Shown here: positions 2,273-49,994 of the stretch, piece by piece
Layout: every line of letters starts with the position of its first letter
How positions within the stretch are numbered: position 1 is the first letter of the stretch
Assembly: GCA_963731795.1 (NCBI GenBank)
Contig: CAVSWU010000003.1
Coordinates: forward strand, 1,030,216-1,094,215
Direction of reading: 5' to 3'
Length of the DNA stretch: 64,000 bases
DNA from: an uncultured delta proteobacterium
GTDB taxonomy: Bacteria > Myxococcota > Myxococcia > Myxococcales > Myxococcaceae
Translations under genes and position numbers: made by a program
Notes under the pieces: model-generated
What the model saw: only the letters and a program-made list of their open reading frames with translations
What the model was told of the DNA's origin: nothing
Databases searched by the model: none

Positions 2273-5200
2273 CCACGGCCGGGCCTCCCCCACCGAGGCG
2301 GCGGGCGCGGCGCGGTCTGCGGAGCCGTCTGCGGAGCCTGCCGCGGCTCTGGAGCCTTCGGAGCCGGCGCGGGAGCGGCGGGCTGCGGGCGCGGTCCCCG
2401 CGGTGGCGGAGGGCGCCATGCCCGGATCCTTGGCCACGTCCGAGGTGGCGAAGAACTCGCTGCCGCGGAAGGGCACCTGGCGCACCTGCGCGTAGGCGCC
2501 CGGCTGGTACTTGTTGACCTGCTCCTGCGCGGCGAGCGTCCACTCGTTGTAGATGGACAGCTCGTAGGCCTTGTCGAGCGCCTTCTCCAGCGCCTCGGTG
2601 GACTTGTCCTCCAGCGGGAGCGCCAGGTTCTCCAGCTCGCCGCGGTACATGGCCACCTGCTCCTCGTCCAGCCCCTTGGGATCCGGCGACTCGAGGATGT
2701 TGCGCGCGAAGTCCGCGTACGCGAGCCCGATGCGGGTGAGCGCCGCGATAGCCCACTCGCCCGACGCCGGTGGCGAGCACCGCCGCGTACTCCTTCTCCA
2801 CGCTGCTGGATCTCGCGCTGCTTGGCGACCAGATCGCGCTTGATGGTGGACACGCGGTGAAGCTTGATGTCCGTGTAGCGCTTCCACTGCGGCTCCAGCT
2901 CCAGGAAGCGCGCGTGGGCGTAGGCGTCCAGCACGCTCACGTCCTTGCTGTCCTCGTCGGACAGGCGGGCCCAGCCGCGCACCAGCTCGCCCTGCGCGCG
3001 CTCGGGCTCTGCGAGTTCTTGAGCTGCCGGTACGCGAGCAGCTCGCGGTACTTGGCCAGGTAGACCTGCCCGGCGTGGTGCGCGAGTCGCGGGCGTAGGT
3101 CTCCGCGAAGGAGGCGAAGGCCCTCGCGGCCTCGGCCCACTGCTCGTCCTTCTCGTGGACGAGCGCGATGTTGAAGGCGATCTGCGGCACGTCCTTGCGA
3201 TCCTTGAAGCGCGAGAGGTACGCGTTGTAGGCGGCGATGGCCTTCCGCGACTCGCCCACGCCCTCCCACCAGAGGCCCGCGTTGAAGAGGGCGTCCGCCA
3301 CCCAGCCTCGGCCTCCTTGACGAGCTGCTGGCGCTCGGCGGCGCGCTGCGCGAGCTTCGAGTCCTCGTCCTGCCCGTCCGCTTCTTCGCCGGGCCTTGGC
3401 GATCTTCTTCGCGCGCTTGCCCTTCTTCGCGTCCGGCCCGTCCCCGGCGGCCTCGTCGTAGGCGGCGACGAAGGCCTCGTACATGTCGGCGGACTTCTTG
3501 AACTCGGCCAGTCTTCTCGTAGAAGCCGCGCCAGCGTGTAGCGCACCTTCAGCGCGAACGGGCTGTCCGGGTACTCCTTGAGGACGCGCTCGCCGGCCTC
3601 GACGCCGCGATCCAGCTCGGTGGCCTCCTGGAAGATGATCATCGCGTAGGTGAGCGCGCGGTCCGCGTTCTCGGACCTCGGGAACTCGGTCACGAACTTG
3701 AGGAACAGCTCGGCGGCCTTCTTCGGGTTCTTCTCCTGGCGGTAGACGATCTCGTCCACCCACTTGTACTGGCTGCCCTCCACCACCTTGGCCACGCGCG
3801 CGGCGAAGTCCGTGCCCGGCTTGGTCAGCTTCTTGTTGGCCAGGAACTGGCGCGACAGCTTGTTCAGCTCGAACCACTCCTCGCGGCTCTCGAGCACGAA
3901 CATCGTGAGGTCCGCCGCGTCCCGCGAGCGCCGCTCCTCGGGGAACTTCTCGATGATCTCGCCGAAGCGCCGCGCCGCGTCCACGAAGTGGTTGCGGTCG
4001 TAGAGGATGACCGCCGCCTGGTAGCGCAGGTCGATCTCGTCCTGGTTGTCCGGGTAGAGCGTGTTGTACGTGTCGCAGGCGGCGACCAGGTGCTCCTCGA
4101 AGTTGCGTGAGCGGCTGCTCCTGCTGCTCCTTCGCGTCCTTCTTGACGATGCGCTTCTTCTCGACGTCGCCCTTGTACTTGTTCTCGTCGACCTTCTGGC
4201 CGTCCTTGAGGTCGCTCTTGGCGAGCTGGCCGCGCTCGATCTTCACCAGCTTGTCGTAGGCGAGCACCGCGGCGAACGCGGCGCTCTTGCGGTAGGACTC
4301 GTTGGAGACCTCGCGCGCCGAGTCGCGATCCGGGATCTTGAACGCCACCACGGCGTCGTACTGGGCGGCGGCCTCCTCCCACTCCTCCAGCGCCCAGAGG
4401 ATCTCCGCGTAGAAGAAGCGCAGGTTGAAGGCGGAGTCGGAGACGAACTCCGGATCCTCGCTGGAGGCGAACGCGTCCACGTACTGCTTGTAGATGTCGC
4501 GCGCGAGCCGGTACGTCTCCACCTGGCGCGTCTTCTGCGCCTCCTGGTGGTACTCGGTCACCATCACGCGCATGGCCTCTTCCGTGACGTTGAAGGCGTT
4601 GCGCAGCACGGGGCTTGTTGCCCGCGTTGGCCTGCCACCACGCGCCGCCCGGCCGGTACAGGTCCACCATCTTCTTCATCTCGGCGCGCACCTGCGTGCG
4701 CTGGCGCAGCCCCTCGTACGCGCGGACGATGGCCTGCTGGTACTCGGGCGCGCCCGGGCCCATGGGCTTGTCGTCGATGAGCACGCGGAACATCTTGATC
4801 GCGCTGTCGAAGTGGCCCGCGTCCGCCAGCCCCACGGCCGTCTTCGCGATGCAGCCGCGACTGCCGCTTCTCCGGCGCCTTCTGGCTTGAAGTAGGCGAT
4901 GGCCTCGTTCGGCTGATCGAGCTGCACGTAGAAGACGGTGAGATCGTTGAGCGCCTCGGTGCTTGCAGGTCGCCCAGCTCCTCGCCGCGAGTCTCCGCGT
5001 AGTCCACCACCTCGTGGAGCTTCTTGAGGCCGGCCTCGTAGTCGCCCGCGTTGTAGTCACACCACGCCAGCTTGTAGATGGCGTAGGCGTAGATCTTCGG
5101 CACCCCCGTGTCGCGCGCCTTCTCGTAGTTCTGCTTGGCGGGCATCAGCTTGTTGTTGTCGAAGTAGTAGTTGCCGAGCTGGATGTACGCGTCCGGCATG

Positions 5201-5854
5201 AACTGCGACTTGGGGAAGTCCTTGATCAGCTTCTCGTAGCGCTTCACCGCCTCGGCGCGGCGGCCCAGCTCGTCGAGGTTGTAGCCCAGCGAGAAGAGCA
5301 CCTCGTCGCGGCGCTCGTACTGCGGATAGTCGCGCAGGATGTCCTCGTAGAGGCTCATCGTCTCGCGCGCGGTAGCGCTCGCTGTCGCGGTGGTCCTCCT
5401 TCGGGGCTCCAGCTTCTCGCCGCGCGCGACGCGCCGCGTCGTAGTTCTTCTCCGCCTCCAGGTGCCGGTCCATCTCCAGGCGGTAGAGGTACTTGGACTT
5501 CTCCCGGTACAGCTCGGACAGGTGGTAGAGCAGTCCGCCTTGCGCGAGGTGCCGTCCTCGAGCTTCGGGATCAGGCGCTTGAGGCCCTCGATGGCCTCGT
5601 CGCGCTTCTTGTCCGCGAGCGCATCCTTCTGCGTCCTCGATGCGCGGCAGCTCGGCGAACTTGGCGTGGGCGGGGCTCATCCGCGCCGGGCCCTGCCGCT
5701 CGCTCCTCCGGCGCCGCCGGCGCTCGCCTGGACCTGGCCTTCGCGCCGCCGCAGGCCGCTTGGCCCGCCGCTGCTGCGCCGCCGCCTCGCCCACCCCCCC
5801 TGCGGCGAGCGCCACGCCCACCGCCAGGGCACCGAACCGAAGGACCGCCTTCAT
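2257..5854 (-). CDS. large periplasmic TPR protein of about 1200 aa (NfsD/GltD-AgmU-like), broken into at least 5 reading-frame segments
   Basis: The signal peptide is MKAVLRFGALAVGVALAAGG at 5854. Natural TPR-like segments lie in the frames of ORFs 5057..5854, 4564..5358, 3864..5060, 2257..3984 and 770..4609 (for example YIQLGNYYFDNNKLMPAKQNYEKA and ...RQVPFRGSEFFATSDVAKD). The in-frame garbage between these segments implies indels. Confidence 0.5.
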
Positions 5855-6067
5855 GCGAGCTCCTGCTCTGAAAGGACGCCGAAGCTAAGAGCGACCCACC
5901 GCTCTGAGAAGTGCTACGCCCGAGACAGGTGGCAACAATTCGCCCACCGCGCAGCGGGCTTCCGCACTGAACGAACGACGCACCGCGATCAGGGGAGCGC
6001 GCTCCGAGACGGCGGTGCGTCAGGTACTGACCGACTGCGCGACGCGGATCGCGCCTGGCCGTCGCCC

Positions 6068-7611
6068 TACTCCTGGGCGCTCGCGGGACAGCCGCGCTTG
6101 AGCGTGTACTGGTAGTAGCCGATCTCGTCGATCCAGAACTCGCCCTGGAACTTCCAGTAGTTCCAGTCCGCGCCCGGGCATGGCCGGGCGGTAGAGCGAC
6201 TGGCGCGTCAGCAGCTTCTTCTGGTCCACGCCCGGCCGCAGCAGGTCCTTCTGGTCCAGCGCCGTCTGCACGCGGATGATCTCCGTCTGGTCGCCGAAGG
6301 TGCGCAGGTTGTCCGCGGCCTCCTGCAGGCGGCTCTTGGCCAGGGTGCCGCCCACCTGCAGCAGCGTGTGCGCAGCGTCCTCGAGCGCGGCCACGGTCTC
6401 GGGCGCCAGCGGCGTGCCCTTCCACGCCGACGTGCCGGTGATGGCGCGCTTCTCCTCGTCCATCTGCTCGCAGCCCGCGCATCACGCTCGCGGATGCGCT
6501 CGTTGTTGCGGATCCACAGGTACACCGGGCGCGGCAGCCGCCGGTTCTCCGGGCGGACACCAGGTCGAAGGCAGGCGATCAGCTCCATGTCCTCGCCGTG
6601 AAGCGGCTTGAGCTGCTTCGCCATGGGCCCGTAGACCTCGTCGAAGGCGGCCAGCGTCGTCTTCGACCTCGTCGAAGAGGCAGCTGTAGTAGTAGACGGT
6701 CGCCTTGAGGATCCACGACTCGGGCTGGAAGGCGCCGGCGAACTGCGGCGCGTGCAGCGCCTGCAGGCTGCCGAGCGCCCCGCCGAAGTCCTCGTTCTGG
6801 AAGCGGGCGAAGCCGTTCTCGAAGAGCGCCTGATCCCAGTAGCGCGAGTAGCGCGGCACGGCCTCGTAGGCCTCGCTCGCCTCCTCGTACTCGCCGCGCC
6901 CGTAGTGCAGGCGCCCCAGCCCCAGCAGCGCGAGCTCGCGCGTCTCCTTGAGCTCGATCTGCTGCTCGCCCTGCTGCTTCAGCACCGTCTTGAAGGCGGA
7001 GATCGCGGCCTTGTCCAGCGCCTCCGCCTCACCCGGGCGCCCCGGGAAGCGCGGGTCCGCCAGCACGACGCCCAGCAGGTAGTGCGCCTTGGCGTAGACG
7101 CGGCTGCTCGGGCGGCACCGCCTCCAGCAGCGCGCGCGCCTCCTCGAAGCTGGCCGCGGCGCTGGCTGATGGTGCCCACCAGGTAGTTGATGCGCGCGAG
7201 CACCTCCCGGGGCAGCGTGACCCACTGATCCCTCACCTCTTCCGTGTAGGCCTGGTTGAGCAGGCTGGGGATCAGGTTCTGCTCGTCGAGCTGCTGCTGC
7301 ATGTCGACGAGCCCCTCCACCGCCTCGAGGTACGAGGGGTGCGAGGGCCCCGCCTTCACGATGGCGGCGTAGGTGACGAAGGCGCTCACCGGCAGCCCCT
7401 TCTGCGCGAAGGTCTGCGCCAGGTAGTACTCGGCCTTGCCCTTGATCTCCGGGTCCGAGGCGCCCTCGGAGATCTCGAAGAAGAGCGGCGCGGCGGTGTC
7501 GAGATCGCCCGCGTTGAAGGCGGCGAGCGCGCGGTTGTACGTGGTCACGTCCTGCGCGAGCGCCGCGAGCGGCGCCAGGGCGACGGCGAAGAGTGCGAGC
7601 AGTCGGGACAT
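6068..7611 (-). CDS. TPR-like periplasmic protein of about 510 aa (NfsC/GltC-like); at least 4 frameshifts
   Basis: The signal peptide is MSRLLALFAVALAPLAALAQD. Natural segments are successively in ORFs 6979..7611, 6482..7225, 6208..6624 and 6020..6463. The true C-terminus ...ADWNYWKFQGEFWIDEIGYYQYTLKRGCPASAQE* is in a fourth frame and ends near 6068. Confidence 0.5.
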
Positions 7612-7621
7612 GGCGTTCCCC

Positions 7622-8861
7622 TCAGAAGAGGATCGAGAAGCCGGCGTAGAAGCTCACGTTGTTGAGGACGTCCGAGGAGGGCTCCGCGACCAGGTCCCTC
7701 CCGAGGATGATGTCCTCGCGGTAGTTCTTCTTGGTCTTGGGGTCCACGCCGTCGAACTTCTGGAACTGGCAGCTCCCGCTGAGCCCCAGGTTCTCGAAGG
7801 ACTGGTTGCCGGCGCGCGCGGACTCCATCTTCTCGAAGTCGGCCAGGTTGCAGCCGTCCACCCGGTCCACGCGCGCGGTGTAGACGAGATCCCTCACCTC
7901 GAGGCGCAGCGCGTACGAGTCACCGAACTGCACGCGGAAGCCACCGCCCACCGAGCCCAGGAACTTGAGCCCCGTGTCCCCGAAGCGCGCTGGGACGTTG
8001 TACGTCTCGCCGTCCACCTCGTTGGAAACCTGCGGCCGGATCAGGTGCCGCGTCCCGCCGAGGCCCGCGCCGCCGCTGAGGATCAGGCTGAACTGCGCCA
8101 GGTGGTTCGTCGTAGAAGGCGAACTTGCCGTAGAGCGGCGTCACCTCGACGCCCGCCTGCGCGCCCCACGACAGCAGCAGCGACGAGGCCGCCTGCGCCT
8201 GCTCGCGCACCTTGTCGATCAGCTCCAGGTTGAAGGGGCTCTCGTTGGAGTACCAGTTGTACTGGCCCGTCAGCTGGAGCGCGAAGTTCTCCTGCAGGTG
8301 GTAGATGTAGTTGAGCGCGCTGCCCACGTGGTTGGTGAACTTGCCGTTCACCTGCACCGCCAGCGGGTAGAGCGCGAACTCGTGCCGGCCCTCGTCCGCG
8401 AAGGGCTTCTTCTGGACGATGTGCACGGAGACGTTCGGGTTGTAGAGCGGCGCGCCGTTCACCAGCCGCTGCTGCTCGGGCGTCGTCGTGCGCAGCTCCG
8501 TGTCCACCTCCGCCACCGTGGGCGCGTCCTTGGCCGGCTTCGACTCGGCGGGCGCGGCCGCCTCGGCCGGTGCCGGAGCCTGCTCGGAGGCAGGAGGCTG
8601 GGCGGCCTCGAGCTCCTCGTCCTCGTCTTTCTTGGAGCGCGCACGCGCCGCGGGCTGGGGCTGATCGCCGGGCACGGCCGTCCCCATCTCGCGAGCAGGC
8701 GAGGACTCGGGGCGCGCCCCGGGCGCCGCCGGAGCTGCCGCCTGGGGCGGAACGGAGCCCTCGGCTCCCGGCGCGGGCACCGTGGGTTCGGATTTCACGA
8801 CGGTGGGCTCGGCCCCGACGACCGTCGACAGGAGGACCGCGAAGGACAGGATCGTTCGCAT
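7622..8861 (-). CDS. outer-membrane beta-barrel protein of about 410 aa (NfsB/GltB-like); one frameshift near 8090
   Basis: The signal peptide is MRTILSFAVLLSTVVGA. An Ala/Pro-rich linker is followed by the barrel. The N-terminal part (ORF 7920..8861) is natural up to ...LYGKFAFYDE, and the C-terminal part (ORF 7622..8017) ends ...YAGFSILF with a terminal Phe. Confidence 0.55.
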
Positions 8862-8866
8862 GGGTT

Positions 8867-9688
8867 CTAGAAGAGGAAGGTGTAGCCGACGTCGAACTGG
8901 ACCAGGTGCGTGAGCCCCGGGTGGAGCGCGGGCGTGCCCGTCTCTCGGCCCGCCTCCCAGTCATCCCGAGATAGATCCATGCGGTAGGCGTCGCGGAACA
9001 CCCAGTCCCGCAGCTCCAACTTCACGCCGTGCCGCTCGAAGGCGAAGAACCGGAAGCCCAGCGCCGCGCTCACCACCGGGGCCACCCGCGTCTCCTTCAC
9101 CCAGAAGCTCTCGGTGGCGGTGGAGCGCTCCAGCGGATCCGTGCGGTTGTCGCAGATGCCCAGGTCCCGGTTCACCACGTTGGCGCACTGGATCAGCGAC
9201 TGGCGCTGGAACGAGCCCACCCCGCCCCCCGCCCACAGGTACGCCTGGAAGTGCGCGGGCACCTCCGCCATCAGCGACAGCTTGCCGTACACCGGCGCCC
9301 ACCGCACGCCGATGACGCCGTGGAGATTCATCCGCCACAGGTCCTCGAGCTCGTCGGTGACCTTCTTGTCATCCCGGGTCAGGAAGCTCTCGGAGATGGA
9401 GCGCGCCAGGCCCGTCTGTCGGCTGAACGCGTAGCCCGCCCGGCCTTCCACGGCGAGCGTGTCGAACAGGTTGTAGGCCACGCCCACGTCCATGGTGTAG
9501 TGGGCCGTGAGGTAGGTGAACACCGAGATGCCCAAGCTCGGAGACAGCTCGAGGTTGCCCGCCGGCCGGTAGAGCCGGTTGCGGACGACGGCTGGCTCCA
9601 GGAGCTGCTCCTGCTGCCCGGCGGCGCTCAGGGCCGTCAGGGCCAGGATCATCGTGGAGAGCACGCGAAGCGAACGGACGGTCAACAT
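8867..9688 (-). CDS. outer-membrane beta-barrel protein of about 274 aa (NfsA/GltA-like), intact
   Basis: The signal peptide is MLTVRSLRVLSTMILALTALSAAGQ. It has alternating amphipathic strands and the C-terminus ...DVGYTFLF. It is a paralogue of the adjacent barrel gene. Confidence 0.6.
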   Translation of the reverse strand: MLTVRSLRVLSTMILALTALSAAGQQEQLLEPAVVRNRLYRPAGNLELSPSLGISVFTYLTAHYTMDVGVAYNLFDTLAVEGRAGYAFSRQTGLARSISESFLTRDDKKVTDELEDLWRMNLHGVIGVRWAPVYGKLSLMAEVPAHFQAYLWAGGGVGSFQRQSLIQCANVVNRDLGICDNRTDPLERSTATESFWVKETRVAPVVSAALGFRFFAFERHGVKLELRDWVFRDAYRMDLSRDDWEAGRETGTPALHPGLTHLVQFDVGYTFLF

Positions 9689-9725
9689 GGCGCATCCAAG
9701 TGCACATCCGATGCCCCACGGGCAA

Positions 9726-9757
9726 GATGCACGAGCCCCCCGACCGTGCATTTTTTT
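9726..9757 (+). terminator. intrinsic-terminator-like hairpin (ATGCACG-N11-CGTGCAT) followed by T7, oriented on the plus strand
   Basis: The sequence is gATGCACGagccccccgacCGTGCATTTTTTTcac. A T7 run is rare at this GC content. No annotated plus-strand gene lies upstream of it. Confidence 0.3.
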
Positions 9758-9859
9758 CACGGACGAAGCCCCCATCGCCCGGTGGATGACGTTTCTGTCA
9801 GCTCAAGCGGGAGCCGCAAGGCACGCAACGGGCACACCCCGCGCGGGTTCCACGGTAAG

Positions 9860-10249
9860 ATGGAGTGGGAGGCCAATCCGACCTCAATGAATGAAGCCAG
9901 GAGCCCTGTCGTGAGCGGTCCCGAGCGTCGCCGTCACACCCGCTACAAGGTTCGGCTGAGCATCGAGTTCCTGCGTGGCGAGGCCGAGGTCGCCGGGGAG
10001 ATCTTCAACATCTCCTGCTCCGGCTGCCTGCTCGTCACGCCCGTGGCCCTGCAGGTGGGAGAGCGCGTCGAGGTCTATCTGCCCGAGCTCGGCCGGCCCC
10101 CGGAGGCCTTCCGGGTGGTGCGTACCCGTCCGCTGGGCTCGTGGTACGCCGTGAGCGTGGAGTTCCAACCTCACCTCCCGGACGACGCAGTGCTGGCCAG
10201 GCTCGCCAGCCAGGAAGAGACGCCGGAGGATCCCGAGCAGATCTTCTGA
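9860..10249 (+). CDS. PilZ-domain c-di-GMP receptor (129 aa)
   Basis: It has RRRHTRYKV ... GEIFNISCSGCLLVT, matching the RxxxR and (D/N)xSxxG PilZ motifs. Confidence 0.7.
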   Translation: MEWEANPTSMNEARSPVVSGPERRRHTRYKVRLSIEFLRGEAEVAGEIFNISCSGCLLVTPVALQVGERVEVYLPELGRPPEAFRVVRTRPLGSWYAVSVEFQPHLPDDAVLARLASQEETPEDPEQIF

Positions 10250-10259
10250 GCCGCTCCGG

Positions 10260-11270
10260 CTACCCCGCCTTGCGCGCCAGCAGGAGGTGGAGGCAGCCGG
10301 TGTCCTCGGTGAGCACCTGCGCTTCCGCCACACCGGGCAGCCCGGCCAGCAGCCGCAGCAGATCCTCTGGCTCCCGGTAGATGAGGTACCAGTCCAGCGC
10401 GCTCTCGGTGAAGTGGTGCATGGGGTTGCGCGCGTTGAAGTTGCCCAGCGCCAGCAGCCCGCCCGGGGCCAGCCCCTCCCAGAGCTTCGCGGTGAGAGTG
10501 CGGGCGAAGCGCTCCGTGAGGTAGTCGTAGAGCCCGATGGAGTAGATGAAGTCCTGCGAGGCGGCAGTGAGCTCGCTGCGGTTGCGCAGCAGCCCCAGCA
10601 CCGAGCCGCACCACAGCCGCAGCGCATCGTGCCGGGTGGCGGGCAGCGCGCCCACCCGGGTGAAGTGACCGAGCGCCGCGTCCAGCGCGCCCTTGTCCTG
10701 GTCCATCAGCGTCACGCCCTCGAAGGAGAGCTCGCGCGCCACCGCCACGAGCTCGGGCGCCGAGCCGGAGGCCACATTCATTACCCGGCGGGCCCCTCGG
10801 GCCTGCTCCCTGCGCAGCAGCTCCGCCAGGAGATCCCGGCGATTGCGCACCGCCTGGAAGCCCGGCAGCCCCAGCGCCCACGTGTCCATCCAGCGCTCGG
10901 GGGAGGTGTCGCCGGTGGGGGTGTTCCGGTAGAGCGACTCCATCATCAGGAAGTCCCCCGCGTAGCCGCGGGGCTTCTCCCAGCACCGCCGCAGCACCGC
11001 GCTCTTCCAGAAGCGCGGCCCGGCCTCGGCCCGGAAGCGGACCTGCTCCGGGGAGGCGCGCGCCAACCCCGGTGCTCCGGGCTTGCCTCCTGCCGTCCAT
11101 ACCTCGAACAGCAGCGCGCCGAGCCGCGCCGAATCCGCCTGGGTGGGCGAATCTTTGATCCGATCGGAATTTTCCAGCTCGTCCAGCCAGGCCAGCAGGC
11201 TGGAGAGCGCGGTCCCGAACGCGGAGGGATGATCTTGGGAGGAGGAAGGGAGGCTCGTGGGCGGACTCAA
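10260..11270 (-). CDS. class I SAM-dependent methyltransferase (336 aa)
   Basis: The motifs RVMNVASGSAPE and LALGNF have a Rossmann-type MTase look. The gene appears intact. Confidence 0.5.
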   Translation of the reverse strand: MSPPTSLPSSSQDHPSAFGTALSSLLAWLDELENSDRIKDSPTQADSARLGALLFEVWTAGGKPGAPGLARASPEQVRFRAEAGPRFWKSAVLRRCWEKPRGYAGDFLMMESLYRNTPTGDTSPERWMDTWALGLPGFQAVRNRRDLLAELLRREQARGARRVMNVASGSAPELVAVARELSFEGVTLMDQDKGALDAALGHFTRVGALPATRHDALRLWCGSVLGLLRNRSELTAASQDFIYSIGLYDYLTERFARTLTAKLWEGLAPGGLLALGNFNARNPMHHFTESALDWYLIYREPEDLLRLLAGLPGVAEAQVLTEDTGCLHLLLARKAG

Positions 11271-11352
11271 GGCGACACTACCCTAGCGTGACATGGGAGC
11301 GCGCCCAAAGAGGCGCCAAGTGCATGCCTCGTTGTGACAGAATCCGTGAACC

Positions 11353-11937
11353 ATGCTCTCCCCTGCTCTCCAGGAGCGTGACAGCCGGATACGCGTCACC
11401 CCCGAGACGGCCACCGTCCGCGGGCTCATCTTCAATTCGGTGTTCAAACTGCTCACCCAGCACCTGGGCGAAAACGTGGCGCTGGAGGTGCGATCCACCA
11501 TCTCGAAGAAACCGCTGGTGGACTTCTTCCCCTACCCAGCCCGCGACTTCCTCGTGGTGCTCTACGACGCGGCCGAGCGCCTCACCCCCAAATACGGCTC
11601 CCTGGAGGCGGCCATCCACGCCTGTGGGGCGGCGGCGGTCGGCGGGTTCTTCCAGTCCGCGGTGGGCAAGACACTCACCCACATCATCGGGCGGGGAGAT
11701 CCCAAGAGGCTCTTCTCGAGCGCGCCCACCGCCTACGGCACCACGGTGAGCTATGGCCAGCGGGAGTACACGGCGCTGAGCGAACGCCGCGTGCGCCTGC
11801 ACTTCCGCGGCGACATGCAGCCGGTGGAGTTCCACCAGGGGCTGCTGGCGGAGGCGCTCCGGGCCGTCGGCTGCCAGGGGCAGGTCAAGGCCACGCGGCT
11901 GGGCCTCGACGAAGCCGAGTACCTCATCGAGTGGTGA
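11353..11937 (+). CDS. conserved hypothetical protein (194 aa), possibly the myxobacterial paralogous DUF2378/TIGR02265 family
   Basis: This is a clean ORF with typical codon usage. The family assignment rests on memory of its size and composition only. Confidence 0.3.
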   Translation: MLSPALQERDSRIRVTPETATVRGLIFNSVFKLLTQHLGENVALEVRSTISKKPLVDFFPYPARDFLVVLYDAAERLTPKYGSLEAAIHACGAAAVGGFFQSAVGKTLTHIIGRGDPKRLFSSAPTAYGTTVSYGQREYTALSERRVRLHFRGDMQPVEFHQGLLAEALRAVGCQGQVKATRLGLDEAEYLIEW

Positions 11938-12059
11938 GCGCGAGCCGGGAGGCGCTCCTCACGTTCAGGGCGAGTTACTCCACCCTTCCCGCCCGGGCCG
12001 GCTCGCAGAGGTGGCAGAGCCTGAGCGGGAGCTGGGCATCCCATGGGGCCCGGTAGTCC

Positions 12060-13859
12060 TCACACTGTCGCTCGGGTCGGGAGTTCAGGGCGCGGGCGAC
12101 GTCTGGCAGTCTCCCCGCCGTTGTCCTGCTGGGCAGCGGCGTACCCCTTGAAGTCTTCCTCCCCGGCGTACCAGAACACGCAGAAGCCGGGCTCTTGCCT
12201 CACCTGGCCGTGGAGGAACTGCTCCCACCCACAGTCGAGCGGCGCTTCATCGTAGGTGTGGCTCAGGCTCGCATTCATGAAGTTCATCATCGGCCACGTG
12301 GGGGCAAGCAGCCCTCCGAACGCGGCGCCCTGCTGCGCCAGCGTGGCCTCGATTCGCCGCCACCCTTCCCGATCCGCGAGCGGGATGAGCGAGCGCCAGG
12401 GAGGAGCGCCGGACATCCGCTCGAGGAAGCTGCTCCGGTAGGGCCTGCACGCGGCCTGGAGGTTGAACAGCGAGATGCCCACGACGACGCCCAGAGGCAC
12501 CAGGCCCACATGGGAGAGCCGTTGCTGTCGCCGGGCCCAGCGGACGAGCACCTGCGCCACCAACGCGGAGAGCAGGACCAGCATCGCGCCTAGCACCAGC
12601 ACCACGCCATGCAGGTGGTACTTGAAGAAGTAGTACTCCGGGGTGATCCCCAGCCACAGGTAGAGGATCTGGATGAAGGAGTTGATGGCGCCGAAGACGC
12701 CCGCATACCGGGCCAGGCGCGCCCCCGCCTCCCCCAGCGGCAGCCCCATCCGGCGCGTCGCGAGCGGCAGGACCAGCAGCAGCAACGAGAGCCACGCCTC
12801 TCCCCGGAGCATCGCATAGCCCTTGGGCGCGATGATGGCGCCCGTCACCGGGATGAGCGGCAGCAGCTTCGAGTACGCGAAGAGAGCGGCCCCGCCCAGC
12901 CCAGCGGCCAGCCCGAGAAGTCCCCATCGCAGGCGCCTGTCGTGTGACAGCCCGAACGCCTCGAAGGTCATCAACACGGCGCTGGCGGCGGCGACATCGC
13001 CCAGGTTGAGCCCGTAGGTGAACCGGTGGAGAAGCACGGCGAACAGGAGCGCACCTACCCGCAGGGTACGCGCTCGGAGGATCCCGAAGAGCACCCAGCA
13101 CAGGACGGTGGGGACCAGCCCGAACAGGTGTCCATAGAACCCGTCGGACTGATGGTAGTGCAGGATCCGGAACAGGATGGTGAACCCCAACGCCGCAAAC
13201 CCTCCCAGAAAGAGCCACAGGGAGAGCCGCGCGGGGGCCTGACCGCCCTCCTCCCACGCCCGCGACACGACGAGGAGCGCCGCGAGCATGCAGAGCGTCA
13301 TCAGCAGGGGGATTGAGTAGAAGCCGGCCCGGAATGACTCGAACGCGTCCTGGCGGAAGAGCACCTCCAGCCAGTACGTGAACGAGTAGAAGGTCACGAA
13401 CTTCTGGTAGGTGTCCGGATCACTCTCGAGGAAGTGGCGCCGCAGGGCGACATGGTTGCCCGCATCGCCGCCGCCCACCGACACCATGCCATCGAACGCA
13501 GGAGCATGGAGCGCCCAGAAGACAGCCCCCATCGCCAGCCCCAGCACCAGCACCGCTTGAATGGCCAGGCCCCGGTCCTCCCCCCACGGCCCGCCGCGCA
13601 GGATGACCAGGGCCAACACGCTCAGCGTCAGCACCATCCCGAGGCCCAGGCCCGTGGAGATCCCCACCCCCAGCGTGGCCCGGAGGATCCCGGACAAGAA
13701 CAGCGCGAGCACTGGCAACAGCGGCAGCAGGAGCAGCGTGCCCGGCGCCACCCCACCCTTGCCCTCCTGAAGCGCGCCCGGTGCATCCAGCAAGCCCAGG
13801 ACCCGGCTCAGCCGCTCGCGCAGCGCTTGCGCGGTGTTCGCCATCTGCTCAGCCCCCAA
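12060..13859 (-). CDS. polytopic membrane protein (599 aa), a probable PMT/ArnT-like (GT39/GT83-type) glycosyltransferase that uses a polyprenol-P-sugar
   Basis: It has at least 10 predicted TM helices. It overlaps the stop of the upstream GT2 gene by 11 nt, suggesting an operon. The function is inferred from that pairing. Confidence 0.4.
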   Translation of the reverse strand: MGAEQMANTAQALRERLSRVLGLLDAPGALQEGKGGVAPGTLLLLPLLPVLALFLSGILRATLGVGISTGLGLGMVLTLSVLALVILRGGPWGEDRGLAIQAVLVLGLAMGAVFWALHAPAFDGMVSVGGGDAGNHVALRRHFLESDPDTYQKFVTFYSFTYWLEVLFRQDAFESFRAGFYSIPLLMTLCMLAALLVVSRAWEEGGQAPARLSLWLFLGGFAALGFTILFRILHYHQSDGFYGHLFGLVPTVLCWVLFGILRARTLRVGALLFAVLLHRFTYGLNLGDVAAASAVLMTFEAFGLSHDRRLRWGLLGLAAGLGGAALFAYSKLLPLIPVTGAIIAPKGYAMLRGEAWLSLLLLVLPLATRRMGLPLGEAGARLARYAGVFGAINSFIQILYLWLGITPEYYFFKYHLHGVVLVLGAMLVLLSALVAQVLVRWARRQQRLSHVGLVPLGVVVGISLFNLQAACRPYRSSFLERMSGAPPWRSLIPLADREGWRRIEATLAQQGAAFGGLLAPTWPMMNFMNASLSHTYDEAPLDCGWEQFLHGQVRQEPGFCVFWYAGEEDFKGYAAAQQDNGGETARRRPRPELPTRATV

Positions 13860-14946
13860 TCAGCGATCTGACCCGAAGCCCCAGCAACGCGGTGGTCACC
13901 TTGACCATGAACCGGATGCTCTTGAGCCCGCTCAGGCTCGAGACGCCCTGCGTGCGCGGGTTCATCTCCACCAGGAGCTCGTCGATCCGCAGCCCCCGGA
14001 GCGCGAGGAGCGCGATGGACTCGGGCTCGGGGTACTCATCCGGCATGGAGTGCAGGAGCGCCTGCACGGCCCGCCCCGAGTACACCCGGAACCCCGAGGT
14101 CGGATCGCTCACGCTCGCGGCTCTGCCGAACAGCCCCAGGACGAACGTGACCAGCACCCCGCCCGCGCGCCGCAGCCGGGTGGTGCTCCGGAGCCGATCC
14201 GCAGCCGCCCCCGCGGCGGGCTCGGGCGCCGCGAAGCGCGAGCCGATCAGCAGATCCGATCCCTTCTCCGCCGCGATGGCCGCCAGGCGCGGGATCTCCT
14301 CGATCGGGTGCTGGCCATCCGAGTCACACTGGATGACGTAGTCCGCGCCGACGCTGCGGGCGATCTTGAAGCCCGTCAGCAGCGCCCCGGCGACCCCGAC
14401 GTTCGCGCTGTGCGTGACATGGCCCGACGGGGCCAGCGTGCTCAGCAGGCGGAGCGTCTCATCCGTCGAGCCGTCGTTGATCACGCAGAAGGCAAAGCGC
14501 TCCGGCCCGGTGAGCCGCGCCTGGAGCGCCGTGAGCCGGGGGAGCACCTCCGGGAGCGAGCCGGCCTCGTTGTAGCAAGGCAGGATGATCAGCACCTTGC
14601 GGCTGCCCCCCGCGAGGTGCCGCGCCCCCTCCTCCGGGAACAGCCGGGCCGCGAAGCTGGTGGTGAGCTCGACGATCTGCCGCGAGAAGCGCCTGTTCTC
14701 CGCCTGCTGCTCCACCATCTGGAAGAACAGGAACATCATCATCCCGCCGAGCACGAAGTTACTGACGAGCTCGATCCCCAGCACGCGGATCACCGGGCGG
14801 TACAGACCGGGGTTGATCGCCGCGACGAGCAGGAACAGCGCCACCAACCACCAGATCAGCGAGTTGCGCGCCGGCAGGCGGTGGCCGAACTGCGAGAAGA
14901 GGAGGGCAAAGAATCCCGCGGCGAGCAGGACGACGATCAGGGACAT
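13849..14946 (-). CDS. DUF2304-like membrane domain fused to a GT2 polyprenol-phosphate glycosyltransferase (DPM1/ArnC/GtrB-like), 365 aa
   Basis: The N-terminus has 2-3 TM helices. The GT2 part has LIILPCYNEAG, VINDGSTDET and a CDSDGQH-type DXD motif. Confidence 0.65.
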   Translation of the reverse strand: MSLIVVLLAAGFFALLFSQFGHRLPARNSLIWWLVALFLLVAAINPGLYRPVIRVLGIELVSNFVLGGMMMFLFFQMVEQQAENRRFSRQIVELTTSFAARLFPEEGARHLAGGSRKVLIILPCYNEAGSLPEVLPRLTALQARLTGPERFAFCVINDGSTDETLRLLSTLAPSGHVTHSANVGVAGALLTGFKIARSVGADYVIQCDSDGQHPIEEIPRLAAIAAEKGSDLLIGSRFAAPEPAAGAAADRLRSTTRLRRAGGVLVTFVLGLFGRAASVSDPTSGFRVYSGRAVQALLHSMPDEYPEPESIALLALRGLRIDELLVEMNPRTQGVSSLSGLKSIRFMVKVTTALLGLRVRSLIGG

Positions 14947-14999
14947 GCGTTAGCGGGCTCTAAGGCTACCCCGCTAGCACAACAAGCATTTTCTGCCCT

Positions 15000-15048
15000 G
15001 AAAAACGAACGCCCCGCCAGGAACCCTCGAGGGCTCCAGGACGGGGCG
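15000..15048 (-). terminator. rho-independent terminator downstream of rplC
   Basis: On the minus strand it reads CGCCCCG-N25(containing CCCTCGAGGG)-CGGGGCG followed by TTCGTTTTTC. Confidence 0.45.
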
Positions 15049-15073
15049 TCGGTGCGGCGGCGAAACCCGAAGA

Positions 15074-15751
15074 CTAGCGGGCGGCGCGGCCGGCCTTGTG
15101 CTGCTCGCGCAGCGCCAGCTTCACGCTGGGCTTCACGTAGACGATGGCCTCGTTGTGGCCCGGGACGGCGCCCTTCACCAGCAGCAGGCCCTTCTCCACG
15201 TCCACGTCGACGATGGTCAGGTTCTGCGTGGTCACCTGCTCCACGCCGTAGTGGCCCGGCATCTTCTTGTTCGGGTAGGTACGGCCAGGCGTCTTACGCT
15301 GACCGATGGCGCCCGGGTGACGCTGATACTCGTGCGTACCGTGCGTCTTCGTCTGCGAGCCCTTGAAGCTCCACCGGCGCATGACGCCCTGGAAGCCGCG
15401 GCCCTTGGTCACGCCCGTGACGTCCACGAGCTGGCCCTTGGTGAACAGGTCCGCCTTCACGGCGTCGCCCACGTTGAACTTCGCGGCGTCGTCCGTCGAA
15501 ACGCGGAACTCCTTCAGGTGCCGACGCGCCGGGGCGTTGTTCTTCTTGAAGAACCCCTTCTGCGCGTTGGTCAGCACCTTCTCGCGGATCTCCCCGAAGC
15601 CCAGCGTCACCGCCGAGTACTGATCCTTCTCGGGCGTCCGCTTGCCCACGACCTGGCAGGTGTTCACGTCGATCACGGTGACCGGAACGAGGTTGCCCTC
15701 GTCGTTGAACACCTGGGTCATGCCAATCTTCTTGCCAATCAGACCCTTCAC
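15074..15751 (-). CDS. rplC: 50S ribosomal protein L3 (225 aa), a stand-alone copy outside any ribosomal-protein operon
   Basis: The N-terminus MKGLIGKKIGMTQVF and the motifs VTGVTKGRGFQG and LLLVKGAVPG show clear L3 similarity over the full length. The flanking genes are a GT2 and a coiled-coil gene, not rpsJ/rplD. Confidence 0.85.
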   Translation of the reverse strand: MKGLIGKKIGMTQVFNDEGNLVPVTVIDVNTCQVVGKRTPEKDQYSAVTLGFGEIREKVLTNAQKGFFKKNNAPARRHLKEFRVSTDDAAKFNVGDAVKADLFTKGQLVDVTGVTKGRGFQGVMRRWSFKGSQTKTHGTHEYQRHPGAIGQRKTPGRTYPNKKMPGHYGVEQVTTQNLTIVDVDVEKGLLLVKGAVPGHNEAIVYVKPSVKLALREQHKAGRAAR

Positions 15752-15894
15752 GTCATCCTCACTGCGAGCGCCCGTGGCGCAGAAAACTCAATGAATTCCA
15801 CTGCTTGGCCCGTTTTACGGCCTCCGGGCGGCAGGAAGCGGCGCAATCTAGCAGACACGCCCCTCGCGTCAAGCACCGATAGCAACTCCCACCC

Positions 15895-16677
15895 TCACTG
15901 GGCGCGATCAAGTCTCGGGTAGAACGGCGCGAGCTGGGCATCCGAGATGCGCTGCTTGTAGACGTCCTCGCCGAGCAGGAACAACGCCTGATCCAGGTAG
16001 TCTTCCGCCGCCTGGATCTCGCCCTCCTTCTGGGCGATCGACTGGTCGATCTCGGCCATGCGCTGCTTGAAGGAGTCCTCGTGCTCCTCGGCCTCGTCCT
16101 GGATCTCCAGCAGGCGCTTGTGCGCCAGGATGCCGGGCGCGCCGGGCTGGCCGGGCAGCGGGGTCAGCGCGTTGTTCAGATCGTCCTGGAGGGCCTCGAT
16201 GTCGCGGGAGAGCCGCATCAGCTTGAGGCGGTTCTTCTTCAGGTTCTCGCGCGCGGTGGAGATCTCCAATGGATCCCGGCGAGTCATCTCCATGTCGTGG
16301 ATCTTGCCCTCGAGCTTCTTCAGGCCGTCGTTGCCGTAGCGCAGCTCGGCCTTCTTGGAGGACAGCGACTTGCGCATGTCCTTCACCTTGCCCTCGATGG
16401 CGTCCACGGCCTTCTTGTACTTCTTCACCGTGGCGTTGAGCTCGACCTTCTCCTCCTCCTGCTGGGCCTGGAACTCCTGGTAGCCCGCGTCCTCCTCGTT
16501 CATCTCCTGCTCGAGCGCCGCCAGCTCATCACGACGCGCCACCAGCGCCTCCTCGGCGCGGTAGACGCGCTCCATGGTGCGCGGGCAGTTGGGCTTGCCC
16601 GGCAGCCGGTCCCGCGCCAGGTCCCCCAACTGGAAGATGAGTTCGTCGTAGCTCTCTGCCTTCGCCATGGGGCGCAT
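15895..16677 (-). CDS. coiled-coil protein (about 260 aa)
   Basis: It has heptad-rich Glu/Lys sequence (ELAALEQEMNEED...KKLEGKIHDMEM). Confidence 0.45.
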   Translation of the reverse strand: MRPMAKAESYDELIFQLGDLARDRLPGKPNCPRTMERVYRAEEALVARRDELAALEQEMNEEDAGYQEFQAQQEEEKVELNATVKKYKKAVDAIEGKVKDMRKSLSSKKAELRYGNDGLKKLEGKIHDMEMTRRDPLEISTARENLKKNRLKLMRLSRDIEALQDDLNNALTPLPGQPGAPGILAHKRLLEIQDEAEEHEDSFKQRMAEIDQSIAQKEGEIQAAEDYLDQALFLLGEDVYKQRISDAQLAPFYPRLDRAQ

Positions 16678-16725
16678 TTTTACGCCCAAGGCGCGTGGCC
16701 TGTCAGCAGGAGTGCGCCCGTCAGC

Positions 16726-47725: not shown

Positions 47726-48763
47726 ATGAGCAAGCCCATCCAAGTCCTCCTCACCGACGATTCCCCCACGATGCTGCAGGTCCTCACGCGGCTGCTGTCA
47801 GCCCAGCCGGACGTGACCGTGGTGGGAACCGCTCGCGACGGCGAGGAGGCCGTCGTGCTGGCGCGCTCCCTGAAGCCGGATGTCATCACCCTGGACGTGC
47901 AGATGCCGGGGATGGATGGCCTGGGCGCCACCGAGCGCATCATGGCGGAGACGCCCTGCCGCATCCTCATGGTCTCGGGCGCGCCGGACACGGACCTGTC
48001 CTTCCGCGCGCTGCAGGCCGGAGCGCTGGAGGTGATCTCCAAGCCGCAGGGCTCGCCGGAGGACGTGGCGCGCTTCGGGGTGCGGCTGCTGTCCGCCATC
48101 CGACTGTTGGCCGAGGTGAAGCTCGTCACCCAGCGCCGCGAGGGCCACGCCACCGCGCCCGCGCTGCCATCGAACGCGCGCGTGGCGGGCTTCGCGCTGT
48201 CCTCGTCCATCGGCGGGCCTACGGCGCTGGCCTCGCTGCTGTGGCTGTTGCCGCGCAGCCTGCCCTTCCCGCTCTTCATCGCCCAGCACATCACCCCGGG
48301 TTTCACCGTGGGCCTGCACCGGTGGCTCTCGTCGCTGTCTCCGCTGCCGGTGGAGATCGCCCGCGCCTCCGAGCAGCCCCGGGCCGGCACCGTCTATCTC
48401 GCGCCGGACGGCCACCACCTCCGGGTGGGCATGCAGGGCGAGCTCGTCATCGAGAAGGCCTCGGGCAGCACCTTCCCCTCGGGAGATCTGCTGCTGGCGT
48501 CGCTGTCGCGCGCCTTTGGCTCCCACGCCGCCGGCGCGGTGCTCAGCGGCATGGGCGAGGAGGGCGCGGTGGGCCTGATGGCCATCAAGCGCGCCGGCGG
48601 GCTCACCTTCGCGCAGGATCCCGAGACGTGCCTGGTGGCGGGGATGCCGGAGGCGGCGCTGCGCAACAAGGCCACCGAGCACCGCGTCTCGCCCGAGGCC
48701 CTGGCCAACATCCTCCGTTCACTCGAGGGCATGCCCCCGCCGGGCACTCCCCCAGGCATCTGA
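47726..48763 (+). CDS. CheB-type response regulator (REC + methylesterase/deamidase domain), copy 1, intact
   Basis: The REC domain has LLTDDSPTML ... DVITLDVQMPGMDG. The CheB catalytic domain has SSSIGGP...FIAQH...GMGEEGAVGL. Confidence 0.75.
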   Translation: MSKPIQVLLTDDSPTMLQVLTRLLSAQPDVTVVGTARDGEEAVVLARSLKPDVITLDVQMPGMDGLGATERIMAETPCRILMVSGAPDTDLSFRALQAGALEVISKPQGSPEDVARFGVRLLSAIRLLAEVKLVTQRREGHATAPALPSNARVAGFALSSSIGGPTALASLLWLLPRSLPFPLFIAQHITPGFTVGLHRWLSSLSPLPVEIARASEQPRAGTVYLAPDGHHLRVGMQGELVIEKASGSTFPSGDLLLASLSRAFGSHAAGAVLSGMGEEGAVGLMAIKRAGGLTFAQDPETCLVAGMPEAALRNKATEHRVSPEALANILRSLEGMPPPGTPPGI

Positions 48764-48842
48764 TCCTGCTCTGGCCGGGAGAATCGTCAGGGCTGTATGG
48801 CACGGTTCCCCGAGCACTCTCGCCCCCCTCTCCGAGGCGCAC

Positions 48843-49895: not shown

Positions 49896-49994
49896 GCGCC
49901 TCCCCGTTTCAGGCAGGATCGTCTCGGACGTAACAGTCCGCCTCGAGCCCCGCGACTGCGCACGCTACCCAAAGCGTAGGATGCAAGCCACACT

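What the first reader, a model, noticed from the sequence alone, without database searches (positions are those of the whole stretch)
14946..15894. Stand-alone ribosomal protein L3 gene with its own terminator, embedded among glycosyltransferase and envelope genes
A full-length, intact rplC (225 aa, with a basic C-terminal extension LALREQHKAGRAAR) has no rpsJ upstream or rplD downstream. It lies between a coiled-coil protein gene and a DUF2304-GT2 gene, has about 140 nt of upstream non-coding DNA, and is followed by a good intrinsic terminator. Bacteria normally carry a single rplC inside the S10 operon. An extra, independently transcribed L3 could be a specialised paralogue (ribosome heterogeneity, or L3-targeting antibiotic self-resistance as for pleuromutilin/tiamulin-type compounds, plausible in an antibiotic-producing myxobacterium), or the S10 operon may have been rearranged in this lineage.
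Basis: partly seen in the sequence, partly recalled or inferred. Interest (0 to 1): 0.55.

Follow-up and report, generated by a model that had tools for sequence, protein, structure and literature searches.

The report
Relocated sole ribosomal protein L3 gene
This is most likely the ordinary, only copy of the ribosomal protein L3 gene, which in Myxococcus-type bacteria left the usual ribosomal gene cluster long ago and is transcribed on its own; nothing suggests an extra or antibiotic-resistance copy.

Summary
An intact rplC (225 aa, minus strand, 15074-15751) lies between a coiled-coil gene and a DUF2304-GT2 gene. It has 143 nt of upstream spacer, a sigma-70-like promoter and a strong intrinsic terminator, with no rpsJ or rplD anywhere in the window.

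The paralogue and self-resistance reading is not supported. The locus is syntenic with M. xanthus MXAN_3370. Published DK1622 coordinates put S10 (MXAN_3299) 53 nt from L4 (MXAN_3300), and L3 alone about 58 kb away. That paper does not list L3 among the duplicated ribosomal proteins.

All 80 related Myxococcaceae genome loci carry a stand-alone rplC, one hit per genome. So do six contigs of a deeper, uncultured Myxococcales lineage. The gene that follows is normally the first gene of the nfs/glt-type envelope-machine operon. In this window a 5.4 kb strain-variable insertion, which includes the GT2 gene, separates the two.

The loop near the peptidyl-transferase centre (GQRKTPGR) almost matches that of Thermus L3. 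M. xanthus RNA-seq shows rplC tracking the other ribosomal protein genes.

Verdict: an old, lineage-wide break-up of the S10 operon, already visible in public annotation. I could not search this genome itself for a second copy. The one mildly new item is a conserved, structured 5' leader of about 90 nt whose role is unknown.

The parts
15845..15872 (-). Sigma-70-type promoter: -35 TTGACG (15872-15867), 16-nt spacer with TG (extended -10), and -10 TAGATT (15850-15845). A G+C-rich discriminator, GCGCCGC, follows.
   Evidence: 9/12 match with TG, 1 site found against 0.1 expected. GCTTGAC, GCTA..TT and GCGCCGCTTC are invariant in 43 leaders from Hyalangium, Myxococcus, Corallococcus, Pyxidicoccus, Archangium and others. 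The transcription start (about 15838-15840) is inferred, not mapped.
15752..15840 (-). Predicted 5' leader of about 89 nt. It contains hairpin 1 (about 15797-15837), a single-stranded AUUCAUUG plus U-run, hairpin 2 (15768-15780), and the Shine-Dalgarno sequence GAGGA (15756-15760). The 5' CUUCCU could pair with the Shine-Dalgarno region.
   Evidence: both hairpins are present in all 43 leaders despite sequence change; 84.8% of cells are paired; covariation is 0.106 against 0.064 in shuffles (0/500) and 0.035 or less when the pairing is slid; 5 pairs show changes on both sides; no Rfam family matches; covariance model R1 hits the window once, here. Function is unknown.
15074..15751 (-). rplC, encoding ribosomal protein uL3 (225 aa, GTG start); inferred to be the sole housekeeping copy.
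   Evidence: Searches identify the family. Searches show synteny with MXAN_3370 and single-copy status in M. xanthus.
15001..15049 (-). Intrinsic terminator: hairpin ACGCCCCG...CGGGGCGU (15009-15049) followed by UCGUUUUU.
   Evidence: -39.1 kcal/mol for the 79-nt stretch; the same outer stem plus a U-rich tail passes a strict scan in 41 of 80 sequences checked. In M. xanthus, expression drops from about 1040 RPKM (rplC) to about 43 (nfsA).
15895..16689 (-). Context: conserved upstream neighbour, a coiled-coil protein of 264 aa corresponding to M. xanthus MXAN_3368.
   Evidence: present just upstream of rplC in about 50 genomes..
9615..15000 (.). Context: a 5.4 kb strain-variable insertion between the rplC terminator and the nfsA homologue. 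It holds DUF2304-GT2 (13849-14946, minus), a 599-aa membrane protein (12060-13859, minus), DUF2378 (11353-11937, plus) and a 336-aa ORF (10260-11270, minus).
   Evidence: in L012 the matching gap is about 180 nt. L001 (L3 98% identical) has a different 3 kb in place of 11953-14998..
8867..9775 (-). Context: nfsA/gltA-type gene, the first gene of the envelope-machine operon that normally follows rplC directly.
   Evidence: 65-70% identical to the gene right after rplC in Myxococcus and allies, and 27-30% identical to the gene right after rplC in the sister lineage; in DK1622 that gene is nfsA (MXAN_3371).

Best explanation
This is the organism's normal and, by inference, only uL3 gene. In an ancestor of the Myxococcaceae and of at least one deeper Myxococcales lineage, rplC left its place between rpsJ and rplD. 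It has since persisted as a single-gene transcription unit placed just upstream of the nfs/glt-type envelope-machine operon.

How it most likely works (inferred unless marked): transcription starts from its own strong sigma-70-type promoter, which has an extended -10 and a G+C-rich discriminator of the kind associated in E. coli with stringent, growth-rate control. The mRNA carries a structured leader of about 90 nt with a strong Shine-Dalgarno sequence, and transcription stops at a strong intrinsic terminator. Coordination with the other ribosomal protein genes therefore comes from promoter-level control rather than co-transcription. Shown in the sequence: the gene, spacer, promoter-like site, hairpins and terminator. 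Shown in the literature for M. xanthus: the gene order, and expression that parallels other ribosomal protein genes.

The GT2 and membrane-protein genes next to rplC in this window are a later, strain-specific insertion unrelated to rplC.
For: - Identity: TIGR03625 equivalog at 270.7 bits against a 142.9 cutoff, full model length. Full-length alignment to L3 chains of solved ribosomes.
- M. xanthus DK1622 coordinates (PMC6791715 supplements): EF-Tu MXAN_3298 at 3853234-3854424; S10 MXAN_3299 at 3854626-3854934; L4 MXAN_3300 at 3854988-3855611; L23 and L2 follow. L3 is MXAN_3370 at 3913660-3914304, flanked by MXAN_3367, MXAN_3368 and nfsA (MXAN_3371).
- The same paper lists paralogues only for S1, S4, S14, L28 and L33.
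- The window keeps that neighbourhood: HupE, a 156-aa ORF, the coiled-coil gene, rplC, then nfsA-D homologues.
- All 80 related genome loci have rplC with no S10, L4 or L2 within 6 kb, one locus per genome.
- Six contigs of a sister lineage (L3 49-56% identical) also have a lone rplC followed about 95 nt later by the same four-gene set.
- Own transcription unit: the promoter is invariant across genera and the terminator is conserved. M. xanthus vegetative RPKM is 270 for MXAN_3368, 1043 for rplC and 43 for nfsA.
- rplC falls in the same developmental expression group (6) as S10, L4 and L23.
- The loop near the peptidyl-transferase centre, GAIGQRKTPGR, compares with Thermus GSIGNRKTPGR.
Against: - I could not read the S10 operon of this genome or of any Hyalangium. 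Single-copy status here is therefore inferred from M. xanthus plus conserved synteny.
- The genome scan found loci through exact 8-residue peptide words and kept only the best 80 of 167. A divergent second copy would have been missed.
- The transcription start and the terminator's function are predicted, not mapped. No TSS entry for MXAN_3370 was found in the supplementary files held for the M. xanthus Cappable-seq paper.
- At 6 h of starvation rplC falls less (1043 to 690) than S10 (3283 to 646) or L4 (1455 to 522), so co-regulation is not perfect.
Confidence: 0.9

Rival explanations
1. An additional, specialised L3 paralogue (ribosome heterogeneity, or self-resistance to an antibiotic that targets L3 or the peptidyl-transferase centre), alongside a canonical rplC in the S10 operon.
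For: The gene is stand-alone with its own promoter and terminator. M. xanthus does have differentially expressed paralogues of other ribosomal proteins (S4, S14, L28, L33). An NRPS-like gene lies at 61401-63983.
Against: - In M. xanthus the syntenic gene is the only L3 entry found, and the 53-nt S10-L4 gap excludes a second copy there.
- There is one hit per genome in 80 genomes.
- The gene scores as a full equivalog.
- Loop residues match Thermus L3.
- Expression is at ribosomal-protein level and profile.
- The conserved neighbours are nfs genes, not a biosynthetic cluster. The NRPS-like gene is 45 kb away.
Confidence: 0.03
2. An assembly or binning misjoin placed rplC in a foreign context.
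For: The window shows several apparent frameshifts in conserved genes, so the sequence is of draft quality. The 5.4 kb downstream of rplC is not shared with relatives.
Against: The same HupE / 156-aa ORF / coiled-coil / rplC / nfs order recurs in about 50 independent genomes, including complete chromosomes, and in DK1622. Both edges of the insertion join conserved sequence.
Confidence: 0.01
3. The relocation came about by xenologous replacement. A foreign rplC was inserted upstream of the glt/nfs-type operon, and the native copy in the S10 operon was then deleted.
For: rplC is cleanly missing between rpsJ and rplD, which is easier to explain by gain elsewhere followed by loss than by a single rearrangement. 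Outside Myxococcales the best cluster representatives are only about 50% identical. Among solved structures Thermus L3 scores better than E. coli L3 (E 5.9e-60 against 1.4e-49).
Against: No donor lineage is apparent. Duplication and loss, or transposition of the native gene, explains the data equally well. No phylogeny was made. In either case the gene is the working housekeeping copy.
Confidence: 0.1
4. An addition to the main explanation rather than a replacement: the conserved structured leader is a cis-regulatory RNA, for example a translational operator that hides the Shine-Dalgarno sequence in response to free L3 or another factor. It would have evolved because rplC is no longer translationally coupled to an operon.
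For: - Two hairpins are kept at fixed positions with compensatory changes.
- Single-stranded motifs are invariant, and the 5' CUUCCU can pair with the invariant GAGGA of the Shine-Dalgarno sequence.
- The element occurs only upstream of rplC in the sequence searched.
Against: - The proposed anti-Shine-Dalgarno helix is invariant, so it has no covariation support.
- Hairpin 1 differs in design between genera, as expected for a generic stabilising stem-loop.
- Folding z-scores are modest (means -1.3 and -0.8).
- The leader is not recognisable in deeper lineages that also have a lone rplC.
- To my knowledge no L3-responsive leader has been described.
- The invariant 5' end may simply be promoter and initial transcribed sequence.
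Confidence: 0.1

Closest known systems
M. xanthus DK1622 MXAN_3370 (MXAN_RS16315), annotated 50S ribosomal protein L3
   Same: Syntenic equivalent: about 84% identity in M. xanthus strains, the same upstream genes (MXAN_3367 and MXAN_3368) and the same downstream nfs operon. The promoter, leader and terminator are conserved.
   Different: The window has a 5.4 kb accessory insertion between rplC and nfsA. RefSeq starts MXAN_3370 at the internal Met11 (645 nt), whereas the conserved MKGLIGKK N-terminus needs the GTG 30 nt upstream.
Canonical bacterial rplC, the second gene of the S10 operon (rpsJ-rplC-rplD-..., E. coli; PMC3616713)
   Same: Same protein family and presumably the same role in the 50S subunit.
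   Different: It is not in the operon: there is no rpsJ upstream and no rplD downstream. It is monocistronic. It cannot be under L4-mediated control of an S10 leader, which in any case is confined to Gammaproteobacteria (PMC3616713).
Alternative ribosomal protein paralogues (in M. xanthus S1, S4, S14, L28 and L33; zinc-independent paralogues in other bacteria)
   Same: It is a ribosomal protein gene that stands outside the main clusters and has its own promoter.
   Different: Those are second copies with divergent sequence and expression. This gene is a single copy in M. xanthus and tracks bulk ribosomal protein expression.
Ribosomal-protein autoregulatory leaders (Rfam L10, L13, L19, L20, L21, S15 and others)
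   Same: It has a structured 5' UTR directly upstream of a ribosomal protein gene, with possible occlusion of the Shine-Dalgarno sequence.
   Different: It matches no Rfam family. No binding partner is known, covariation is modest, and its range is restricted to the core Myxococcaceae genera.

Membership tests
Bacterial ribosomal protein uL3 (TIGR03625 L3_bact, equivalog) | Whole-protein score above the curated cutoff, covering the full model | tested here: met
   270.7 bits against a cutoff of 142.9; model positions 1-202 of 202, protein residues 3-207. The archaeal models score far below their cutoffs.
Bacterial ribosomal protein uL3 (TIGR03625 L3_bact, equivalog) | End-to-end similarity to L3 chains of solved 70S/50S structures, including the extended loop that reaches toward the peptidyl-transferase centre | tested here: met
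   66 distinct PDB sequences at E <= 1e-20. T. thermophilus scores 5.9e-60 over residues 1-212. The loop HPGAIGQRKTPGRTY aligns with HPGSIGNRKTPGRVY. Against E. coli the identity is 44%; window R152 and K153 align with Ec N149 and Q150.
Bacterial ribosomal protein uL3 (TIGR03625 L3_bact, equivalog) | Single housekeeping copy in the genome | tested here: inconclusive
   Met for M. xanthus by published annotation, and there is one hit per genome in 80 relatives. The genome the window comes from could not be searched.
S10 ribosomal protein operon (rpsJ-rplC-rplD-rplW-rplB-...) | rpsJ immediately upstream of rplC | tested here: not met
   No S10 match in the window or in any of 80 loci. No Ribosomal_S10 Pfam hit in six sister-lineage contigs.
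S10 ribosomal protein operon (rpsJ-rplC-rplD-rplW-rplB-...) | rplD immediately downstream of rplC, co-transcribed | tested here: not met
   No L4 or L2 match. A strong terminator follows rplC. In DK1622, L4 follows S10 directly.
Specialised or self-resistance ribosomal protein paralogue | A canonical copy coexists in the same genome | tested here: not met
   In M. xanthus the S10-L4 gap is 53 nt and L3 is not among the duplicated ribosomal proteins. This was tested in the model relative, not in this genome.
Specialised or self-resistance ribosomal protein paralogue | Divergence at the drug-contacting loop, or linkage to a biosynthetic gene cluster | tested here: not met
   The loop is nearly identical to that of Thermus L3. 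The conserved neighbours are hypothetical genes and nfs genes. The nearest NRPS-like gene is 45 kb away.
Known ribosomal-protein leader RNAs (Rfam) | Match to a curated covariance model | tested here: not met
   There is no hit in the leader even at E <= 10, and none at gathering score anywhere in the window.
Known ribosomal-protein leader RNAs (Rfam) | Conserved secondary structure supported by covariation | tested here: inconclusive
   5 of 18 pairs show changes on both sides, and the covariation score exceeds all shuffles and slid controls. However, the sequences are related, the alignment is not structural, and the helix over the Shine-Dalgarno sequence never varies.
Known ribosomal-protein leader RNAs (Rfam) | Binding of the encoded ribosomal protein and feedback repression | not testable with these tools
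   This needs in vitro binding and reporter assays.
Intrinsic (Rho-independent) terminator | G+C-rich hairpin followed directly by a U-tract, downstream of the stop codon | tested here: met
   Hairpin at 15009-15049 plus UUCGUUUUU. It is conserved in relatives. A roughly 25-fold expression drop across it in M. xanthus is consistent.

The most novel reading that the evidence does not exclude
After rplC escaped the S10 operon, the core Myxococcaceae evolved a dedicated 5' leader of about 90 nt: two covarying hairpins, invariant single-stranded motifs, and a 5' CUUCCU able to sequester the Shine-Dalgarno sequence. On this reading the leader acts as a feedback operator for uL3, or a sensor of ribosome-assembly status. 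It would be the first L3-responsive ribosomal-protein leader.
Probability: 0.08. Interest if true: 0.5.

Novelty: already known. Interest (0 to 1): 0.13.

Why it matters
It matters little beyond book-keeping. S10-L3-L4 is one of the most conserved gene orders in bacteria, so a clean, ancient excision of rplC across a whole lineage is a useful curiosity for work on gene-order evolution and on how ribosomal protein stoichiometry is kept without co-transcription.

It also warns genome scanners that a ribosomal protein gene outside its operon is not by itself evidence of a paralogue. The promoter, leader and terminator form a compact, conserved, highly expressed unit that might be handy for engineering myxobacteria.

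The tight, ancient adjacency of rplC to the nfs/glt-type envelope-machine operon is unexplained and probably has no functional meaning.

Tried and rejected
- An exact-sequence look-up of this L3 in public assemblies found nothing.
- I could not fetch a myxobacterial S10-L4 junction directly. I used published DK1622 coordinates instead.
- I tried to reach Anaeromyxobacter and other families to date the relocation. A search seeded with a 65%-identical L3 stayed inside the Myxococcaceae radiation. A seed taken from the 50%-cluster search reached one uncultured sister lineage but no named outgroup. The outer limit of the relocation is therefore unknown.
- The supplementary files held for the M. 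xanthus Cappable-seq paper had no entry for MXAN_3370.
- Literature searches found no paper that discusses the rplC relocation.
- Rfam gave no match for the leader.
- RNAalifold on the MAFFT alignment gave only a weak consensus (-8 kcal/mol), because hairpin 1 differs in design between genera.
- I considered co-transcription with the coiled-coil gene and rejected it. The promoter is conserved, and rplC is expressed at 4 times the level of the upstream gene in M. xanthus.
- I did not predict a structure, because the family assignment is unambiguous.
Full report
THE OBSERVATION

The window has one open reading frame at 15074..15751 on the minus strand (GTG start, 225 aa). It matches the NCBIfam equivalog model for bacterial L3 (TIGR03625) at 270.7 bits against a cutoff of 142.9, over the whole model, and it matches Pfam Ribosomal_L3. 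It aligns end to end with the L3 chains of solved ribosomes; the best is T. thermophilus (E 5.9e-60), and it is 44% identical to E. coli L3.

The upstream gene (15895-16689, minus strand) is a coiled-coil protein with no real family. The downstream gene (13849-14946, minus strand) is DUF2304 + GT2. The upstream spacer is 143 nt. A consensus scan finds one sigma-70-like promoter in it, TTGACG-16-TAGATT with a TG motif, against 0.1 sites expected by chance. A long G+C-rich hairpin followed by UUCGUUUUU lies 25 nt after the stop codon. tblastn with E. coli S10, L4 and L2 finds nothing in the 64 kb.

IS IT AN EXTRA COPY?

The closest are Hyalangium at 92-98%. None has S10, L4 or L2 within 6 kb. 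About 50 keep the same upstream order: HupE, a 156-aa ORF, the coiled-coil gene, then rplC.

Supplementary tables of the M. xanthus developmental transcriptome paper (PMC6791715) give DK1622 coordinates:
- EF-Tu, MXAN_3298: 3853234-3854424
- S10, MXAN_3299: 3854626-3854934
- L4, MXAN_3300: 3854988-3855611, followed by L23, L2 and the rest
- L3, MXAN_3370: 3913660-3914304

The S10-L4 gap is 53 nt, so rplC cannot be there. L3 lies about 58 kb away, flanked by MXAN_3367 (157 aa), MXAN_3368 (256 aa) and nfsA, MXAN_3371. That is the same neighbourhood as in the window. The paper states that only S1, S4, S14, L28 and L33 have paralogues. The window's gene is thus the syntenic equivalent of the only L3 gene reported for the model species.

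Its loop near the peptidyl-transferase centre (GAIGQRKTPGR) is almost the Thermus sequence (GSIGNRKTPGR). The residues that align with E. coli N149 and Q150 are R and K, as in Thermus. Nothing suggests a resistance variant, and no biosynthetic cluster is linked to the gene.

HOW OLD IS THE ARRANGEMENT?

A search of 50%-identity cluster representatives gave one near neighbour, P0234, at 57% identity. Its relatives form a lineage of uncultured 'Myxococcales bacterium' genomes. In six contigs of that lineage rplC is again alone, with no S10 or L4 family within 5-6 kb. Upstream neighbours vary; rpoC plus an aldehyde dehydrogenase gene occurs in four of the six. Downstream there are always four genes of about 280, 360, 510 and 1140 aa (the last with TPR repeats), starting about 95 nt after rplC.

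These four genes are homologous (27-47% identity) to window ORFs at 8867-9775, 7622-8861, about 6480-7611 and from about 4609 downward. Those window ORFs in turn match the genes directly after rplC in Myxococcus, which DK1622 annotation names nfsA-D. The lone rplC placed in front of an nfs/glt-type envelope-machine operon therefore predates the split of these lineages. I could not reach a named outgroup such as Anaeromyxobacter, so the outer boundary is unknown.

THE LOCAL CONTEXT IN THIS WINDOW

In L012, L004, L007 and L019 the rplC terminator is followed, after roughly 0.2-0.5 kb, by the nfsA homologue. In the window 5.4 kb (about 9615-15000) lies between them. The insertion holds the DUF2304-GT2 gene, a 599-aa multi-pass membrane protein, a DUF2378 gene and a 336-aa ORF.

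The closest relative, L001 (L3 98% identical), shares the half of the insertion nearer nfsA. It has a different 3 kb, including an ABA4-like gene, in place of the GT2 and membrane-protein pair. H. versicolor (L022) has yet other genes there. 'Embedded among glycosyltransferase genes' is thus a strain-level accident at a variable spot. It is not a property of rplC.

HOW THE UNIT WORKS

An alignment of 43 distinct upstream regions shows an invariant -35 (GCTTGAC), an extended -10 (TGCTAnnTT) and an invariant G+C-rich stretch, GCGCCGCTTC, immediately after it. From established E. coli knowledge, G+C-rich discriminators mark promoters of rRNA and ribosomal protein genes that respond to ppGpp/DksA. 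Applying that to myxobacteria is inference.

The predicted leader of about 89 nt contains two hairpins. Both are present in every sequence even though their sequences, and for hairpin 1 its design, differ between genera. Invariant single-stranded segments (AUUCAUUG and a U-run) and the Shine-Dalgarno region GUGAGGAYGAC lie between and after them.

On the MAFFT alignment, 84.8% of cells are paired and 5 of 18 pairs show changes on both sides. The covariation score of 0.106 exceeds all 500 shuffles (mean 0.064) and all slid controls (0.035 or less). RNAalifold also pairs the invariant 5' CUUCCU with the Shine-Dalgarno sequence, but those pairs never vary, so they are untested. Rfam has no match. 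A covariance model of the leader hits the window once, at rplC. It also hits held-out loci of the same genera, but only weakly or not at all in deeper lineages.

The terminator's outer stem (ACGCCCCG/CGGGGCGU) and U-rich tail recur across genera.

M. xanthus expression supports an independent unit. Vegetative RPKM is 270 for the upstream gene, 1043 for rplC and 43 for nfsA. rplC sits in the same developmental expression group (6) as S10, L4 and L23, though its drop at 6 h is shallower. The L4-responsive S10 leader of E. coli is confined to Gammaproteobacteria (PMC3616713), so leaving the operon need not have broken that known feedback circuit.

VERDICT

The feature is real and correctly described, and it is ordinary. 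It is the housekeeping rplC of a lineage in which the S10 operon lost this gene long ago, an arrangement already visible in public annotation (MXAN_3370).

- The paralogue or self-resistance idea: about 3%.
- The artefact idea: about 1%.
- Origin of the relocated gene by replacement with a foreign rplC: possible (about 10%) but untested.
- The conserved structured leader as a feedback operator: I give this about 8-10%; it would be moderately interesting if true.

The main limitation is that single-copy status was established in M. xanthus and inferred by synteny. It was not verified in the genome the window comes from.

Noticed in passing
window 9615-15000: A 5.4 kb strain-variable insertion lies between the rplC terminator and the nfsA homologue. 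It holds a DUF2304-GT2 gene (a polyprenyl-phosphate glycosyltransferase-like enzyme) overlapping a 599-aa multi-pass membrane protein, which may form a two-gene surface-glycan modification module. It also holds DUF2378 and a 336-aa ORF. Close relatives carry different genes at the same spot (L001: ABA4-like; L022: others).
   Followed up: partly
window 770-9775 (minus strand); L081-L086 downstream of rplC: rplC is immediately followed by an nfs/glt-type four-gene set (about 280, 360, 510 and 1140 aa, the last with TPR repeats). This holds both in Myxococcaceae and in a sister lineage whose L3 is only about 50% identical. It is an unexpectedly old adjacency with no obvious functional reason.
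   Followed up: partly
window about 8106, about 7105-7156, about 6662, about 4100; 52603-54481: There are apparent frameshifts relative to single ORFs in Myxococcus: the nfsB homologue changes frame once, nfsC twice, and nfsD at least once. An ABC-F gene is split between ORFs 53264-54481 and 52603-54066. These are either draft-quality indels or pseudogenes. rplC is intact.
   Followed up: partly
L081, L083/L084 and a JGI contig: In the sister lineage rplC lies downstream of rpoC and an aldehyde dehydrogenase gene: about 160-230 nt after the dehydrogenase gene in two contigs, and about 1.8 kb after it, beyond a phosphoribosyltransferase gene, in L083/L084. This may be a relic of the path by which rplC left the rpoBC-str-S10 region, or coincidence.
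   Followed up: no
M. xanthus MXAN_3370 (3913660-3914304) compared with window 15722-15751: RefSeq annotates the M. xanthus L3 from the internal Met11 (645 nt). The universally conserved MKGLIGKK N-terminus requires the GTG 30 nt upstream, preceded by GAGGA. The start codon is probably mis-annotated.
   Followed up: partly
window 15790-15805 and aligned leaders (A1 columns 90-110): In Myxococcus and Corallococcus the leader DNA carries TCATTG twice at 10-bp spacing (GTTCATTGAATTCATTGGG). In Hyalangium the first copy is degenerate (CAGTGG). This could be a DNA operator rather than an RNA feature.
   Followed up: no
window 47726-51107 (plus strand): Three tandem CheB-type methylesterase genes occur here, two of them with receiver domains.
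   Followed up: no
window 60307-63983 (minus strand): An NRPS-like adenylation-thiolation-thioesterase protein (860 aa, running toward the window end) lies next to a flavin-dependent monooxygenase. This may be a small secondary-metabolite locus. It is 45 kb from rplC and not linked to it.
   Followed up: no
window 51040-52596 and 54624-56432 (plus strand); 56600-58813: Two Ser/Thr protein kinases flank the ABC-F gene. A Peptidase_Mx-like protein and a D-Ala-D-Ala-ligase-like ATP-grasp protein follow.
   Followed up: no
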